Positions 12,401-14,796 are shown, counted from the first letter of the stretch. The stretch is DNA of 64,000 nucleotides from Escherichia coli (GCF_024223415.1 NZ_CP100500.1); one strand, 5' to 3'. The notes: a model not told the origin generated them from the sequence alone. Numbers and translations: made by a program.

Positions 12401-13376
12401 AACGTTGATGGCGACGCATTTTTTTCAGTTGAGCCGCCAGTCGGGTTGCCAGTTCCGGCAGCGTTTCTTGCGCCGCAATATGAATACCCAACGGCAAAAC
12501 GTTGAGCACGGGTCCGGTAGCCGTCAGCGCCGCCGAGCCCAGTCGACGCATAAAGATAAATCCGGCGGCGTAGTCCATGCGATTGCACAATCGCCCCAGC
12601 CACAAGGCTGCCAGCGCAAGGGCTAAATCGGTACGCTGCACACCTGAAAGTTGCATAGCCAGCTGGCGGAATTCCCCGTCGGTAAATTCCAGTTTCAGGC
12701 GCAGAATATCTGCCGAGGCGCTGCGCCCCGGTAAAGGTGCCGGAGAAAGTGACGCGGGCGGTGGCAGTTGGCGACGCTGTTCCACCCAGAATGCCGCATC
12801 ACGCTGCCAGGCTTCGCTTTCGCGGTATTGCTGGTACTCTTCCACTACATCAGCGAAAGGCGTAAACGGCGAAGCAGGCGTTGGTTCGCCACGCAGCAAT
12901 GCGCAGTAAATGTTGGCGATCTGGCGGGTAATGGCCGGAAAACTGAAGCCATCGACCAGTAAATGGTGATAACGCTGATACCAGTACCAGCGGTTATCTG
13001 CCACCTGTATCAGCTGGTGAAAGACCAGTGGTTTACCGCTATCGACGCGCAAATCTTGTTGCAAATCCGCCTGCATTAATGCCTGCGCAGTACCGTGCGG
13101 ATCAATATTGGTTCGCAGGTCGATAATTTCTGGCAGTTCGAATATCAGCGCATCATCGACCCATTGCCAGACTTCGCCGTTATCTTCCGTAAAACGCATC
13201 CGCAACGTATCTGCTTGCGCTAATCCGGCAACCACCGCGCGGGCCAGTAATGGCGCATCTACCTCTCCGGTTAACTCAACGTAATGCGCCACGCTCCAGG
13301 CGGAGGGTAAATCCGACAGTTTTTCTGCCATCCAGATGCCGGGCTGTGCGGCGACCAAAGGTAAATGCTGGCTCAT
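9495..13376 (-). CDS. entF: enterobactin non-ribosomal peptide synthetase EntF (C-A-PCP-TE)
   Basis: ORF 9495..13514; start set to MSQHLPLVAAQPGIWMAEK (1293 aa); adenylation motifs, PCP site LGGHSLLA and thioesterase GYSLGG visible. Confidence 0.95.
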   Translation of the reverse strand: MSQHLPLVAAQPGIWMAEKLSDLPSAWSVAHYVELTGEVDAPLLARAVVAGLAQADTLRMRFTEDNGEVWQWVDDALIFELPEIIDLRTNIDPHGTAQALMQADLQQDLRVDSGKPLVFHQLIQVADNRWYWYQRYHHLLVDGFSFPAITRQIANIYCALLRGEPTPASPFTPFADVVEEYQQYRESEAWQRDAAFWVEQRRQLPPPASLSPAPLPGRSASADILRLKLEFTDGEFRQLAMQLSGVQRTDLALALAALWLGRLCNRMDYAAGFIFMRRLGSAALTATGPVLNVLPLGIHIAAQETLPELATRLAAQLKKMRRHQRYDAEQIVRDSGRAAGDEPLFGPVLNIKVFDYQLDIPDVQAQTHTLATGPVNDLELALFPDEYGDLSIEILANKQRYAEPTLIQHAERLKMLIAQFAADPALLCGDVDIMLPGEYAQLAQINATQVEIPETTLSALVAEQAAKTPDAPALADARYQFSYREMREQVVALANLLRERGVKPGDSVAVALPRSVFLTLALHAIVEAGAAWLPLDTGYPDDRLKMMLEDARPSLLITTDDQLPRFADVPDLTNLCYNAPLTPQGSAPLQLSQPHHTAYIIFTSGSTGRPKGVMVGQTAIVNRLLWMQNHYPLTGEDVVAQKTPCSFDVSVWEFFWPFIAGAKLVMAEPEAHRDPLAMQQFFAEYGVTTTHFVPSMLAAFVASLTPQTARQSCATLKQVFCSGEALPADLCREWQQLTGAPLHNLYGPTEAAVDVSWYPAFGEELAQVRGSSVPIGYPVWNTGLRILDAMMHPVPPGVAGDLYLTGIQLAQGYLGRPDLTASRFIADPFAPGERMYRTGDVARWLDNGAVEYLGRSDDQLKIRGQRIELGEIDRVMQALPDVEQAVTHACVINQAAATGGDARQLVGYLVSQSGLPLDTSALQAQLRETLPPHMVPVVLLQLPQLPLSANGKLDRKALPLPELKAQTPGRAPKAGSETIIAAAFASLLGCDVQDADADFFALGGHSLLAMKLAAQLSRQFARQVTPGQVMVASTVAKLATIIDGEEDSSRRMGFETILPLREGNGPTLFCFHPASGFAWQFSVLSRYLDPLWSIIGIQSPRPHGPMQTATNLDEVCEAHLATLLEQQPRGPYYLLGYSLGGTLVQGIAARLRARGEQVAFLGLLDTWPPETQNWQEKEANGLDPEVLAEINREREAFLAAQQGSTSTELFTTIEGNYADAVRLLTTAHSIPFDGKATLFVAERTLQEGMSPERAWSPWIAELDIYRQDCAHVDIISPGAFEKIGPIIRATLNR

Positions 13377-13591
13377 TGTGCCTCCTGCAACTGGGTGAAA
13401 TTCGCCGGTGTCAGAGTACGCCAGTGGGCTTCCAGCCACTGCTGGCAGGACTCTTGTGACTGCGGCTGACACACAATGTCCCAGCCTGCCGGTAAGGCGC
13501 ATTGTTGCGGCCACAGACTGAATTGCCCCTGCGCATTGCGCAATATGTAAAACTCTCCCTGCGGATCATCGAAGGGATTACTGAATGCCAT
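13373..13591 (-). CDS. ybdZ: MbtH-like protein YbdZ
   Basis: 72-aa ORF MAFSNPFDDPQGEFYILRN...; MbtH family; overlaps the entF start. Confidence 0.85.
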   Translation of the reverse strand: MAFSNPFDDPQGEFYILRNAQGQFSLWPQQCALPAGWDIVCQPQSQESCQQWLEAHWRTLTPANFTQLQEAQ

Positions 13592-13593
13592 AT

Positions 13594-14796
13594 TCAACTC
13601 CTGTCATGGAAAAGTGGTTGCCAGAGGTCGATTAGCCCCTGCATCAAGCCACCGCGCCAACAAAGCGCATCATGTCCGCCGTCAACCTGACGCCAGAAAA
13701 TGGATTCTTTTATGGGGTGTAATTGCGCATACAGCGCCTGATTGGCCCGCATGATCATCGGCTCGCGAATACCCGCTTCCAGCACAATGCGTAGACCTTC
13801 GGCGCTAACTTCACCAGCTTTTAGCTTTTCAAGTAACACGCCCTCTTGCTGCCCGCCCCGATGCGGCCACCAGTACGATCCTGACTGGCTTAATACACAG
13901 CCAAAGCGTTCAGGCCAGTGCAGTCCGGCATACAGCGCGGAAAGCCCACCAAAACTCTGCCCGGCAACCACGGTGCGATCGGCGCGATCGCTAAAAGGGG
14001 CAATAGCTTTCACCAGGGGTAATAACTCTTGCTGTACTGCGAGCCAGAAATCCGCATTACACGGCAGTTCGTGGGCGCGGTGCGTGGTGTCGATAGCGTC
14101 GATCAACACATATACGGCGGGAGGAAGTTGCTGACGATGGGTCAGCGAAGTCAGCACAGGCCAGACGGGCATACTTTGCGCCCAAAATTCGCCATCGAGC
14201 AAAACTGCCAGCGGGCGTTCTTCTGCTGTTACATCGCCGGTGGTAAAAATCCATACACGACGTGAATTTTTCAACCGTTCACTTTTCCAGATAATTTCTT
14301 TGGCTGGTATTTCTGGCGCTTGCGGACAATCCCATCCCGGTTGCAGAGGCGCTTGCGGCATTTCGAGTGCAGAAACAGCGTGCCCTCGCCCGCCTTTCCA
14401 GCTTTGTGGATTCAGCGGATCGGCTATTGCCTGGGGTAATAGTTTTCGCCAGCCTTCACGTAATTCGAGGCGATCGGGGGATGGTGCAGAAAAAATGTCA
14501 TCGCATTCGGTGGGAATAAAGCAGTAGCTGCCGCGCCAGTTGGCATTGAGTTGTGTCGTCCACTGCCAGACATCAGTACCTGCAATTCGCTGCATCGACT
14601 GGGGCTGGCTGTTCTGATGATGATCGGTCACACCAGTGATGTAGATCCATACGCGCTTTATCGTCGAGTATTCTTCAGAACCTTGGGGATCACGCCACCA
14701 GAAAGTGACCTCAAACATTTCGTCATTCAGACGCTGCCATTCCGGGCCATGTTTCGACTGCCACCAGCTCTCACTTCCTACTTTTAACGCCGTCAC
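13594..14796 (-). CDS. fes: enterochelin esterase Fes
   Basis: 400-aa ORF with esterase GQSFGG motif; divergent from fepA. Confidence 0.9.
   Translation of the reverse strand: MTALKVGSESWWQSKHGPEWQRLNDEMFEVTFWWRDPQGSEEYSTIKRVWIYITGVTDHHQNSQPQSMQRIAGTDVWQWTTQLNANWRGSYCFIPTECDDIFSAPSPDRLELREGWRKLLPQAIADPLNPQSWKGGRGHAVSALEMPQAPLQPGWDCPQAPEIPAKEIIWKSERLKNSRRVWIFTTGDVTAEERPLAVLLDGEFWAQSMPVWPVLTSLTHRQQLPPAVYVLIDAIDTTHRAHELPCNADFWLAVQQELLPLVKAIAPFSDRADRTVVAGQSFGGLSALYAGLHWPERFGCVLSQSGSYWWPHRGGQQEGVLLEKLKAGEVSAEGLRIVLEAGIREPMIMRANQALYAQLHPIKESIFWRQVDGGHDALCWRGGLMQGLIDLWQPLFHDRS

What the first reader, a model, noticed from the sequence alone, without database searches (positions are those of the whole stretch)
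13373..13597. Start/stop overlaps suggesting translational coupling in the ent/fep operons
The entF start overlaps the ybdZ stop and ybdZ is immediately adjacent to fes; fepD/fepG and fepG/fepC (7334..7337) overlap by ATGA. This is consistent with stoichiometric co-expression of the MbtH-like protein with the NRPS and of the ABC transporter subunits. Known biology, but clearly visible here.
Basis: seen in the sequence. Interest (0 to 1): 0.15.

Follow-up and report, generated by a model that had tools for sequence, protein, structure and literature searches.

The report
Overlapping stop/start codons in enterobactin genes
Several neighbouring genes of the E. coli enterobactin iron-uptake cluster really do share a four-base ATGA stop/start overlap, but this is the commonest gene junction in E. 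coli, is already listed in published tables, and probably (not provably) links their translation.

Summary
On the minus strand the ybdZ stop (TGA, 13375..13373) overlaps the entF start (ATG, 13376..13374). The fes stop lies 2 nt before the ybdZ ATG (13591). fepD/fepG (6345..6348) and fepG/fepC (7334..7337) are ATGA overlaps.

All of this is known. RefSeq annotates it, and Huber et al. 2023 list exactly these distances for K-12. The -4 overlap is the commonest same-strand junction in E. coli.

In 38 other Enterobacteriaceae genomes, fepD/fepG and fepG/fepC are -4 in every genome where both genes were found (23/23 and 24/24). ybdZ/entF is -4 in only 22/38; the rest are -8, +1 or +9/+10. The 2-nt fes/ybdZ gap is confined to Escherichia. 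The YbdZ tail beyond residue 67 is simply the entF ribosome-binding site read as codons.

Coupling by termination-reinitiation is plausible, since 4 of 5 tested native E. coli ATGA pairs are coupled, but it is untested here. RNA folding could not decide. "Stoichiometric" is too strong: by homology to FhuB/FhuC, FepC is needed at two copies per FepD-FepG pair.

In passing, fepA carries a private premature stop codon. Low interest; already known.

The parts
13373..13591 (-). ybdZ coding sequence (72 aa MbtH-like protein). The true start is the ATG at 13591..13589 and the stop is the TGA at 13375..13373.
   Evidence: RefSeq annotation. Pfam MbtH, E = 7e-22, covering residues 4-54. PDB 5JA1 chain B, E = 1.6e-45. 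The start aligns with residue 1 in 37 other loci.
13373..13376 (-). ATGA overlap between the entF start (ATG, 13376..13374) and the ybdZ stop (TGA, 13375..13373).
   Evidence: Read directly from the sequence. Distance -4 in RefSeq. Listed as -4 for K-12 in the PMC10666635 supplement.
13381..13386 (-). entF Shine-Dalgarno motif AGGAGG, lying inside the ybdZ tail codons and 4 nt upstream of the entF ATG.
   Evidence: Sequence. Duplex with the 16S 3' end is -10.3 kcal/mol. It is translated as part of the YbdZ tail ...QEAQ.
13594..13596 (-). fes stop codon TGA, 2 nt upstream of the ybdZ ATG.
   Evidence: Sequence; RefSeq places fes at 13594..14796.
13598..13602 (-). ybdZ Shine-Dalgarno motif AGGAG, lying inside the last codons of fes and 6 nt upstream of the ybdZ ATG.
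   Evidence: Sequence. Duplex energy -6.9 kcal/mol. A (C)AGGAG or CGGAG motif is present in 38/38 loci.
13594..14796 (-). fes (enterochelin esterase), the first gene of the fes-ybdZ-entF unit.
   Evidence: RefSeq. Pfam Enterochelin_N plus Esterase.
9495..13376 (-). entF (1293 aa NRPS module with C-A-PCP-TE domains).
   Evidence: RefSeq. Pfam Condensation, AMP-binding, PP-binding and Thioesterase. PDB 5JA1 chain A.
9445..9481 (-). 15-bp hairpin followed by a T-rich tail, just after the entF stop; a terminator-like site between entF and fepE.
   Evidence: Consensus scan. The match is to a consensus only; function was not tested.
5344..6348 (+). fepD (ABC transporter permease subunit).
   Evidence: RefSeq. 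Pfam FecCD.
6345..6348 (+). ATGA overlap between the fepG start (ATG, 6345..6347) and the fepD stop (TGA, 6346..6348).
   Evidence: Sequence. The distance is -4 in 24/24 loci (ATGA in 11, GTGA in 13).
6335..6342 (+). fepG Shine-Dalgarno motif GAGGTGGT, lying inside the fepD tail.
   Evidence: Sequence. Duplex energy -8.7 kcal/mol in the window and -10.4 on average across loci. GGAGGTG is conserved.
6345..7337 (+). fepG (ABC transporter permease subunit).
   Evidence: RefSeq. Pfam FecCD. Homologous to the C-terminal half of FhuB, 7LB8_B.
7334..7337 (+). ATGA overlap between the fepC start (ATG, 7334..7336) and the fepG stop (TGA, 7335..7337).
   Evidence: Sequence. ATGA in 25/25 loci.
7318..7322 (+). 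The only SD-like motif upstream of fepC (AGGAG). It is 11 nt from the ATG, which is far, and is followed by an A-rich spacer.
   Evidence: Sequence. Spacing is 11 nt in the window, and the motif sits at the same distance in all 24 loci.
7334..8149 (+). fepC (ABC transporter ATPase subunit).
   Evidence: RefSeq. Pfam ABC_tran. Homologous to FhuC, which is present as two chains in 7LB8.

Best explanation
These are ordinary junctions inside two iron-regulated polycistronic units of the E. coli enterobactin cluster: fes-ybdZ-entF and fepD-fepG-fepC.

At the three ATGA overlaps, a ribosome finishing the upstream gene terminates on a UGA that shares three bases with the next AUG. A Shine-Dalgarno motif lies inside the upstream coding sequence. 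The most likely mechanism is termination-reinitiation: part or most of the translation of entF, fepG and fepC comes from ribosomes that have just finished ybdZ, fepD and fepG. The partner proteins are then made from the same mRNA, close in time and place, and the downstream protein cannot be made when the upstream gene is untranslated. For entF, whose AGGAGG motif is strong and well spaced, independent initiation probably adds to this.

What is shown: the geometry, the SD motifs, the physical YbdZ-EntF complex, and the strict cross-genus conservation of the two fep overlaps.

What is inferred: that coupling actually occurs at these junctions, and how strongly. Coupling would ensure co-production. 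It would not by itself set exact stoichiometry.
For: - Geometry was read from the sequence and agrees with RefSeq.
- No promoter or terminator enrichment was found inside the units, and there is no terminator-like site at the junctions on the coding strand. fes-ybdZ-entF-fepE and fepDGC are treated as transcription units and change together in RNA-seq (PMC8910356).
- Internal genes have stronger SD motifs than the operon leaders. Duplex energies are fepG -10.4, entF -7.8, fepC -7.1 and ybdZ -6.9 kcal/mol, against fes -5.7 and fepD -4.3. This matches the genome-wide pattern for overlapping pairs (PMC6728339).
- Four of five native E. coli ATGA pairs tested with premature-stop reporters are coupled (PMC6728339). 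Coupling needs overlaps or very short gaps (PMC10666635).
- fepD/fepG is -4 in 23/23 independent loci and fepG/fepC in 24/24, while the start codon alternates between ATG and GTG and flanking codons vary. This differs from ybdZ/entF at Fisher p = 1.6e-4, though the loci are not phylogenetically independent.
- fepC has no well-spaced SD motif (11 nt in the window; same position in all loci). That makes dependence on the fepG ribosome the simplest reading.
- The partners form complexes: EntF with YbdZ in PDB 5JA1, with a 1:1 optimum (PMC7593251). FhuB is a natural fusion of FepD-like and FepG-like halves. Pairs at -8..+10 are 4.5-fold enriched for complex subunits in E. coli.
- The ybdZ/entF overlap was gained at least twice and is kept in all 25 members of the large clade that has it.
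Against: - I could find no experiment on these junctions. No per-gene ribosome-profiling or proteome values could be reached.
- One of the five tested ATGA pairs (bioBF) is not coupled.
- ybdZ/entF sits at +9/+10 with the SD motif in the spacer in 8 genomes, and this is the inferred ancestral state. The system therefore works without an overlap.
- entF has a strong, well-spaced SD motif in a region no more structured than shuffled sequence, so independent initiation is possible.
- FepC is needed at two copies per FepD-FepG pair, by homology to 7LB8. One-for-one reinitiation cannot provide that.
- RNA-structure analysis is uninformative. My accessibility metric failed to separate the experimentally coupled pairs from the uncoupled one, and no conserved SD-masking hairpin or covariation was found.
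Confidence: 0.7

Rival explanations
1. The overlaps are a neutral by-product of operon compaction and stop-codon loss. Each downstream gene is translated independently from its own Shine-Dalgarno motif. The ATGA arrangement arises simply because an ATG followed by A supplies an out-of-frame TGA for any upstream frame that has lost its own stop. Co-expression then comes only from sharing an mRNA.
For: - The YbdZ core ends at about residue 67. The 69-73 aa versions carry variable tails that are the entF ribosome-binding site read as codons (CAG GAG GCA CAA TGA gives QEAQ). Top-residue frequency is 0.36 in the tail against 0.80 in the core, and the tail lies outside the MbtH domain.
- The 67-aa versions stop before the SD motif and leave a +9/+10 gap. 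This is the inferred ancestral state.
- Every internal start has its own SD motif.
- bioBF shows that an ATGA overlap can exist without coupling.
- The fes/ybdZ distance drifts from 2 to 30 nt between genera.
Against: - The -4 state is invariant at fepD/fepG and fepG/fepC across about 20 genera, despite ATG/GTG switching and flanking change.
- The ybdZ/entF spacing never exceeds +10 in 38 loci. The overlap was gained at least twice and was not lost in any of the 25 members of the large clade.
- fepC's SD-like motif is 11 nt away.
- Four of five tested E. coli ATGA pairs are truly coupled.
Confidence: 0.22
2. Coupling occurs by structure unmasking rather than reinitiation. The downstream ribosome-binding site is buried in mRNA secondary structure. 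Ribosomes translating the upstream gene melt that structure, which lets new 30S subunits initiate. This could give more than one downstream initiation per upstream ribosome and so explain a twofold excess of FepC.
For: - Across other genera, the fepG ribosome-binding site costs about 15 kcal/mol to open, against 7-10 for the other starts. It exceeds its own shuffles in 91% of loci. Its SD motif is paired with probability 0.78, mostly to fepG codons 4-6.
- In the window, the minimum-free-energy fold pairs the fepG SD motif with CCUCGUG.
- The mechanism is documented for the E. coli atp operon (reference list of PMC12548453).
Against: - In this window, none of the four junctions is more occluded than shuffled sequence (z from -0.4 to -1.3). 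The entF region folds less well than all 200 shuffles.
- RNAalifold finds no conserved SD-masking helix and no compensatory changes.
- The accessibility metric failed calibration on pairs with known behaviour.
- In the tested E. coli pairs, the last 15 nt of the upstream gene were enough for coupling (PMC10666635).
Confidence: 0.08

Closest known systems
Overlapping same-strand gene pairs coupled by termination-reinitiation (Huber et al. 2019, PMC6728339; Huber et al. 2023, PMC10666635)
   Same: - Same -4 ATGA geometry.
- An SD motif lies inside the 3' end of the upstream gene.
- The genes encode interacting proteins.
- The very pairs fes>ybdZ (+2), ybdZ>entF (-4), fepD>fepG (-4) and fepG>fepC (-4) appear in that study's K-12 table.
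   Different: None of these four junctions was among the pairs tested experimentally. The table scores ybdZ/entF as 'not a complex', although PDB 5JA1 contains both proteins.
MbtH-like protein plus NRPS adenylation-domain pairs (YbdZ-EntF, PDB 5JA1; fused forms SlgN1 4GR4 and ObiF1 6N8E)
   Same: The window's YbdZ and EntF are close matches to the crystallised E. coli proteins (5JA1 chains B and A: E = 1.6e-45 over residues 1-72, and E = 0, 2892 bits, over residues 1-1293). A 1:1 ratio is reported as optimal. Natural fusions of the MbtH domain to an NRPS achieve the same 1:1 ratio in a single polypeptide.
   Different: Here the two are separate genes joined only by a 4-nt overlap. In related genera the junction is -8, +1 or +9/+10. 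MbtH-like proteins from other clusters can substitute in trans in other systems (PMC7593251), so linkage in cis is not a general requirement.
Type II ABC importers for iron-siderophores and vitamin B12 (FhuBC-D 7LB8, BtuCD, HmuUV)
   Same: FepD and FepG belong to the FecCD family and FepC is an ABC ATPase. The closest solved relatives are FhuB, FhuC, HmuU and BtuC. Across prokaryotes, FepD>FepG, FepG>FepC and FepD>FepC COG pairs have a typical distance of about -4 (PMC10666635 supplement).
   Different: FhuB fuses the two permease halves, whereas Fep keeps them as two overlapping genes. No structure of FepDGC itself was found, so the 1:1:2 composition rests on homology.
bioB/bioF of E. coli: an ATGA overlap without coupling
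   Same: Same ATGA junction in a biosynthetic operon.
   Different: bioF initiates de novo despite a very weak SD motif (-2.0 kcal/mol). The ent/fep downstream genes have much stronger SD motifs. This pair shows that geometry alone does not prove coupling.

Membership tests
Translationally coupled overlapping gene pair (termination-reinitiation) | The two genes are on the same strand, in one transcript, with no terminator or promoter between them. | tested here: met
   Same strand by annotation. No terminator-like site at the junctions on the coding strand, and promoter-like sites are at the chance level (8 found, 7.7 expected). The literature treats fes-ybdZ-entF-fepE and fepDGC as units. Co-transcription was not measured here.
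Translationally coupled overlapping gene pair (termination-reinitiation) | The stop and start codons overlap (-4 or -1), or the distance lies between -8 and +10 nt. | tested here: met
   ybdZ/entF -4, fepD/fepG -4, fepG/fepC -4 and fes/ybdZ +2.
Translationally coupled overlapping gene pair (termination-reinitiation) | A Shine-Dalgarno motif for the downstream gene lies inside the 3' end of the upstream gene. | tested here: met
   AGGAGG with 4 nt spacing (entF), AGGAG with 6 nt (ybdZ) and GAGGTGGT with 2 nt (fepG). For fepC only an AGGAG at 11 nt is present, which is poorly spaced.
Translationally coupled overlapping gene pair (termination-reinitiation) | Translation of the downstream gene falls when a premature stop blocks ribosomes from reaching the junction, at constant mRNA level. 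| not testable with these tools
   This needs reporter fusions or ribosome profiling. No published test of these junctions was found.
Translationally coupled overlapping gene pair (termination-reinitiation) | The junction is conserved in relatives beyond what flanking divergence predicts. | tested here: inconclusive
   Met for fepD/fepG (23/23) and fepG/fepC (24/24). Only partly met for ybdZ/entF (22/38 at -4, all within -8..+10). Not met for fes/ybdZ, where +2 occurs only in Escherichia.
MbtH-like protein / NRPS partner pair | The small protein carries the MbtH domain. | tested here: met
   Pfam PF03621, E = 7e-22, residues 4-54.
MbtH-like protein / NRPS partner pair | The partner is an NRPS with an adenylation domain, and the two bind each other. 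| tested here: met
   EntF has Condensation, AMP-binding, PP-binding and Thioesterase domains. PDB 5JA1 holds EntF (chain A) and YbdZ (chain B), with sequences essentially identical to the window's.
Type II ABC importer (FecCD permeases plus ABC ATPase) | Two FecCD-family permease subunits and one ABC ATPase are encoded together. | tested here: met
   Pfam FecCD for FepD and FepG, and ABC_tran for FepC. Homologous to FhuB and FhuC.
Type II ABC importer (FecCD permeases plus ABC ATPase) | Subunit composition is permease heterodimer to ATPase dimer (1:1:2). | tested here: inconclusive
   Inferred from 7LB8, which has one fused FhuB chain and two FhuC chains. No solved FepDGC structure was found.

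The most novel reading that the evidence does not exclude
The ybdZ/entF junction may be a natural allelic series. The ancestral arrangement would be a 67-aa YbdZ followed by a +9/+10 spacer carrying the entF SD motif. At least two lineages then lost the ybdZ stop, so that YbdZ now reads through the entF ribosome-binding site and ends in an ATGA (or ATGnnTGA) overlap, which was afterwards never lost. If that repeated gain reflects selection, the variable YbdZ tail has no protein function. It would exist only to deliver terminating ribosomes to the start of a 3.9-kb NRPS gene, so that the MbtH-like partner is never limiting. A related open point: fepC keeps an invariant ATGA and has no well-spaced SD motif, yet is needed at twice the level of FepD and FepG. 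Something beyond one-for-one reinitiation must therefore set its output.
Probability: 0.25. Interest if true: 0.3.

Novelty: already known. Interest (0 to 1): 0.1.

Why it matters
It matters little beyond confirming that the annotation is right. The junctions are textbook-type operon features, and these exact distances are already tabulated for E. coli K-12.

The small additions from this work:
- Among the named junctions, only the two transporter overlaps are strictly conserved across genera.
- The YbdZ/EntF overlap is a derived, lineage-variable state, and the extra YbdZ residues are the translated entF ribosome-binding site.
- A published table wrongly scores YbdZ/EntF as not forming a complex.
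- "Stoichiometric" cannot be literal for FepC.

These points could guide anyone who re-engineers the ent/fep genes, for example when refactoring enterobactin or other NRPS pathways, where separating ybdZ from entF or fepG from fepC might change expression ratios.

Tried and rejected
- **RNA structure as a way to tell coupled from independent initiation.** Single-sequence folds, opening energies across 23-38 loci and SD pairing probabilities suggested an occluded fepG site and an open entF site. I then scored the five pairs whose behaviour Huber et al. measured, and the metric failed to separate coupled from uncoupled. In the window itself fepG is not occluded. I dropped this line of evidence.
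- **A conserved SD-masking hairpin at fepD/fepG.** RNAalifold found only a 6-bp helix elsewhere in the region and no compensatory changes.
- **Direct expression data.** Li et al. 2014 and Schmidt et al. 2016 are not held. The held supplements of an E. coli ribosome-profiling study contain no values for these genes. Further literature searches found nothing specific.
[quoted passage not shown] 2018, the YbdZ alanine scan, are not held.
- **The MbtH>NRPS pair in the COG-pair tables of Huber et al. 2023.** It is not listed there.
- **A hidden RNA element or internal promoter/terminator in 13373..13597.** Rfam finds nothing there, and the consensus scan finds nothing above chance.
- **The TTG at 13597 as the ybdZ start**, which would make a TTGA overlap with fes. 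Rejected: the SD motif directly abuts it (0 nt spacing), and other genera align at the ATG.
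Full report
**What the window is.** The 64-kb window is an E. coli chromosome segment that carries the enterobactin (ent/fep) cluster in the reverse of the K-12 orientation. A 6.2-kb query around the finding matched 5,415 of 5,426 complete E. coli genomes. It was essentially identical to six of them, including NZ_CP084096.1. Over 25.2 kb that strain differs from the window at 13 single bases. Its RefSeq annotation, moved into window coordinates, reads:

| Gene | Window coordinates | Strand |
|---|---|---|
| entE | 39..1649 | - |
| entC | 1659..2834 | - |
| fepB | 3023..3979 | + |
| entS | 3983..5233 | - |
| fepD | 5344..6348 | + |
| fepG | 6345..7337 | + |
| fepC | 7334..8149 | + |
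| fepE | 8146..9279 | - |
| entF | 9495..13376 | - |
| ybdZ | 13373..13591 | - |
| fes | 13594..14796 | - |
| fepA | 15039..17279 | + |
| entD | 17454..18074 | + |

Pfam confirms the families: MbtH for YbdZ; Condensation, AMP-binding, PP-binding and Thioesterase for EntF; enterochelin esterase for Fes; FecCD for FepD and FepG; ABC_tran for FepC.

**Checking the observation.**
- ybdZ/entF: the minus strand reads GCAGGAGGCACAATGAGCCAG. The entF ATG (13376..13374) and the ybdZ TGA (13375..13373) share three bases, giving an ATGA overlap. AGGAGG lies 4 nt upstream.
- fes/ybdZ: the minus strand reads ACAGGAGTTGAATATGGCA. The fes TGA (13596..13594) is followed by two bases and then the ybdZ ATG (13591..13589).
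- fepD/fepG is ATGA at 6345..6348.
- fepG/fepC is ATGA at 7334..7337.

One correction is needed. The upper coordinate given, 13597, is the in-frame TTG that a mechanical ORF finder picks. It is not the true start. The SD motif directly abuts that TTG but is 6 nt from the ATG, and in 37 other loci residue 1 aligns with the ATG.

**Is it unusual?** No. Huber et al. 2023 report that -4 is the commonest same-strand distance in E. coli, and that 707 of 2,987 same-strand pairs lie between -8 and +6 (PMC10666635). Their supplementary list for K-12 gives exactly fes>ybdZ +2, ybdZ>entF -4, fepG>fepC -4 and fepD>fepG -4. Not every ent junction overlaps: entC>entE is +9, and entF>fepE is 215 nt. In the annotated part of this window, 3 of 22 same-strand pairs are -4.

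**Related sequences.** Using YbdZ as the query, I fetched 39 loci from one-genome-per-species collections. They are all Enterobacteriaceae or close relatives, with YbdZ identity between 94% and 58%. I anchored each gene by tblastn and read the junctions. The counts below exclude the near-identical RefSeq strain.

| Junction | Result across independent loci |
|---|---|
| fepD/fepG | -4 in 23/23; the start codon alternates between ATG and GTG; GGAGGTG lies upstream |
| fepG/fepC | ATGA in 24/24, although the next codons differ |
| ybdZ/entF | -4 in 22/38, -8 in 7, +1 in 1, +9/+10 in 8 |
| fes/ybdZ | +2 only in the five Escherichia species; 10-30 nt elsewhere; an AGGAG or CGGAG motif always precedes the ATG |

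The fep junctions differ from ybdZ/entF at Fisher p = 1.6e-4. The loci are not phylogenetically independent, so that figure is only indicative.

**How the ybdZ/entF overlap arose.** An alignment of the YbdZ proteins shows a conserved core of 67 residues (top-residue frequency 0.80) and a variable tail (0.36). The eight genomes with a +9/+10 gap all have the 67-residue form, ending ...HFAR or similar, followed by TAAGGAGnnnnnnATG. The 69-73 residue forms read on through the entF ribosome-binding site. In the window, CAG GAG GCA CAA TGA is translated as Q-E-A-Q. The tail lies outside the MbtH domain, which covers residues 4-54. I built an EntF neighbour-joining tree rooted on Izhakiella. On it, Fitch parsimony places the +9/+10 gap at the root and needs at least five state changes. 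The -4 overlap appears at least twice, and all 25 members of the large Escherichia-Citrobacter-Enterobacter-Leclercia clade keep it. This rests on one gene and one outgroup, so it is an inference.

**Do the partners need matched amounts?** Probably for some pairs, but not exactly for all.
- PDB entry 5JA1 contains EntF (chain A) and YbdZ (chain B). A 1:1 ratio of MbtH-like protein to adenylation domain is reported as optimal (PMC7593251). Some NRPSs carry the MbtH domain fused in the same chain (4GR4, 6N8E). The 'CMPLX not' label for ybdZ/entF in the Huber et al. table is therefore an oversight.
- FepG's closest solved relative is FhuB, a single chain. FepG matched it in two stretches, the best being the second half (residues 386-660). 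In the same entry the FepC homologue FhuC is present twice (7LB8). By homology the transporter is FepD1:FepG1:FepC2. FepC should then be made at twice the rate of FepG, which a one-for-one hand-over of ribosomes cannot deliver.

**Mechanism.** The best-supported reading is termination-reinitiation. Huber et al. tested native overlapping pairs with premature-stop reporters: four of five E. coli pairs and nine of nine Haloferax pairs were coupled. One E. coli ATGA pair (bioBF) initiated de novo (PMC6728339). Coupling falls 40-80% at +14 nt and is nearly gone by 20-38 nt (PMC10666635). On that basis:
- The three ATGA junctions, and the +2 junction in this window, are within the permissive range.
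- The 10-30 nt fes/ybdZ gaps in other genera mostly are not.
- The internal genes carry stronger SD motifs than the operon leaders, as is usual for overlapping pairs.
- fepC has only an AGGAG 11 nt upstream. That makes it the junction most likely to depend on the upstream ribosome.
- entF has a strong, well-placed AGGAGG and could also initiate independently.

**RNA structure did not help.** Initial folds suggested an open entF start (z = +2.06; all 200 shuffles fold at least as well) and a paired fepG SD motif. Across other genera the fepG site is costly to open: about 15 kcal/mol, above its shuffles in 91% of loci. Three results undercut this. RNAalifold found no conserved masking helix and no covariation. 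In the window itself, none of the four junctions is more occluded than shuffled sequence. And when I applied the same metric to the five experimentally characterised pairs fetched from K-12, it did not separate coupled from uncoupled: the tightly coupled ydbH/ynbE pair is the most open at 2.8 kcal/mol, while bioBF scores 8.3. I therefore draw no conclusion from folding.

**Other checks.**
- Promoter-like sites inside the units are at the chance level (8 found, 7.7 expected).
- No terminator-like site lies at the junctions on the coding strand. The one strong hairpin (15 bp, 9481..9445) follows the entF stop.
- Rfam finds nothing in the region of the finding.
- No direct measurement of translation at these junctions could be found.

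**Verdict.**
- Coupling is likely for fepD>fepG>fepC and plausible for ybdZ>entF.
- The fes>ybdZ adjacency is lineage-specific.
- Exact stoichiometric expression is neither shown nor, for FepC, arithmetically possible by simple reinitiation.

Novelty: already known. Interest: low.

**Seen in passing.** fepA in this window has a TGG-to-TGA change at 15713 that truncates the receptor at codon 225. None of the 5,024 complete genomes that match the surrounding 61 nt carries this allele. It is therefore either a private mutation or a sequencing error. Other items are listed separately.

Noticed in passing
window 15711..15713 (fepA, + strand): fepA carries an in-frame stop codon (TGG to TGA at 15713...KTQADA*DINQG), which truncates the 746-aa ferric-enterobactin receptor at codon 225. 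The nearest RefSeq strain has an intact gene. None of the 5,024 complete E. coli genomes that match a 61-nt query centred on the site carries the allele. It is either a private loss-of-function mutation or a sequencing error. If real, it could also be polar on entD, which lies 174 nt downstream in the same unit; that is an inference.
   Followed up: partly
window 13595..13597 (- strand): An in-frame TTG two codons upstream of the ybdZ ATG overlaps the fes stop as TTGA. The SD spacing (the motif directly abuts the TTG) and the cross-genus alignment both favour the ATG.
   Followed up: yes
window 8146..8149: fepC (+ strand, ending at 8149) and fepE/wzz (- strand, ending at 8146) converge, and their 3' ends overlap by 4 nt according to the RefSeq coordinates.
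   Followed up: no
window 9445..9481 (- strand): A 15-bp perfect hairpin with a T-rich tail lies right after the entF stop, in the 215-nt gap before fepE. It looks like a terminator or attenuator between entF and fepE.
   Followed up: no
window 7274..7293 (+ strand): A 7-bp GC-containing hairpin followed by TTTACCTTAT lies inside the fepG tail, 40 nt upstream of the fepC start. The terminator scan flagged it, and it also appears in the minimum-free-energy fold. It is probably a chance match within coding sequence.
   Followed up: no
PMC10666635 supplementary file 3, entry NGHB#561: The published E. coli table scores ybdZ/entF as 'CMPLX not', although PDB 5JA1 contains EntF and YbdZ together. 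The reported enrichment of complex subunits among overlapping pairs is therefore slightly conservative.
   Followed up: yes
window 42300..45840: About 3.5 kb is absent from the nearest RefSeq strain. It holds an orphan Rhs C-terminal tip with an AHH nuclease domain (41167..42909), small ORFs, an Rhs-repeat fragment (43545..44015) and a DDE transposase (44119..45255). The segment lies downstream of a vgrG/rhs locus.
   Followed up: partly
window 52642..64000: Beyond the tRNA-Arg/envY region, the window departs from the RefSeq strain. It carries an omptin (53066..54019), an AraC-family regulator, a methyltransferase, and lambdoid tail genes: a tail-fibre assembly protein, a tail fibre, and a gpJ-like tip attachment protein at 60673..63975. 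There is also an Rfam IS009 match at 56647..56845. This is a prophage remnant.
   Followed up: partly
window 17354..17395 and 18340..18495: Rfam matches the sRNA ES036 (CssrF) between the fepA stop and entD, and the sok antitoxin RNA of the hokE locus downstream of entD.
   Followed up: no
L007 (NZ_GG670150.1) and L023 (CACSKA010000002.1): A 223-bp scaffold labelled Lactobacillus johnsonii and a 647-kb contig labelled Chryseobacterium sp. 18061 both encode enterobacterial ybdZ. L023 has the full fes-ybdZ-entF arrangement and is almost identical to a Citrobacter isolate from the same study. These are probably contaminated or mislabelled public assemblies.
   Followed up: no
L009-L039, fepD/fepG junctions: Outside Escherichia, the fepG ribosome-binding site is predicted to be strongly paired, mostly to fepG codons 4-6 (CCUUCCC or CCCUCCC). 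The opening cost is about 15 kcal/mol. In the window it is 7.6 kcal/mol, no higher than shuffled sequence. The pyrimidine tract encodes the conserved P-S-R-R motif, so the pairing may be incidental.
   Followed up: partly
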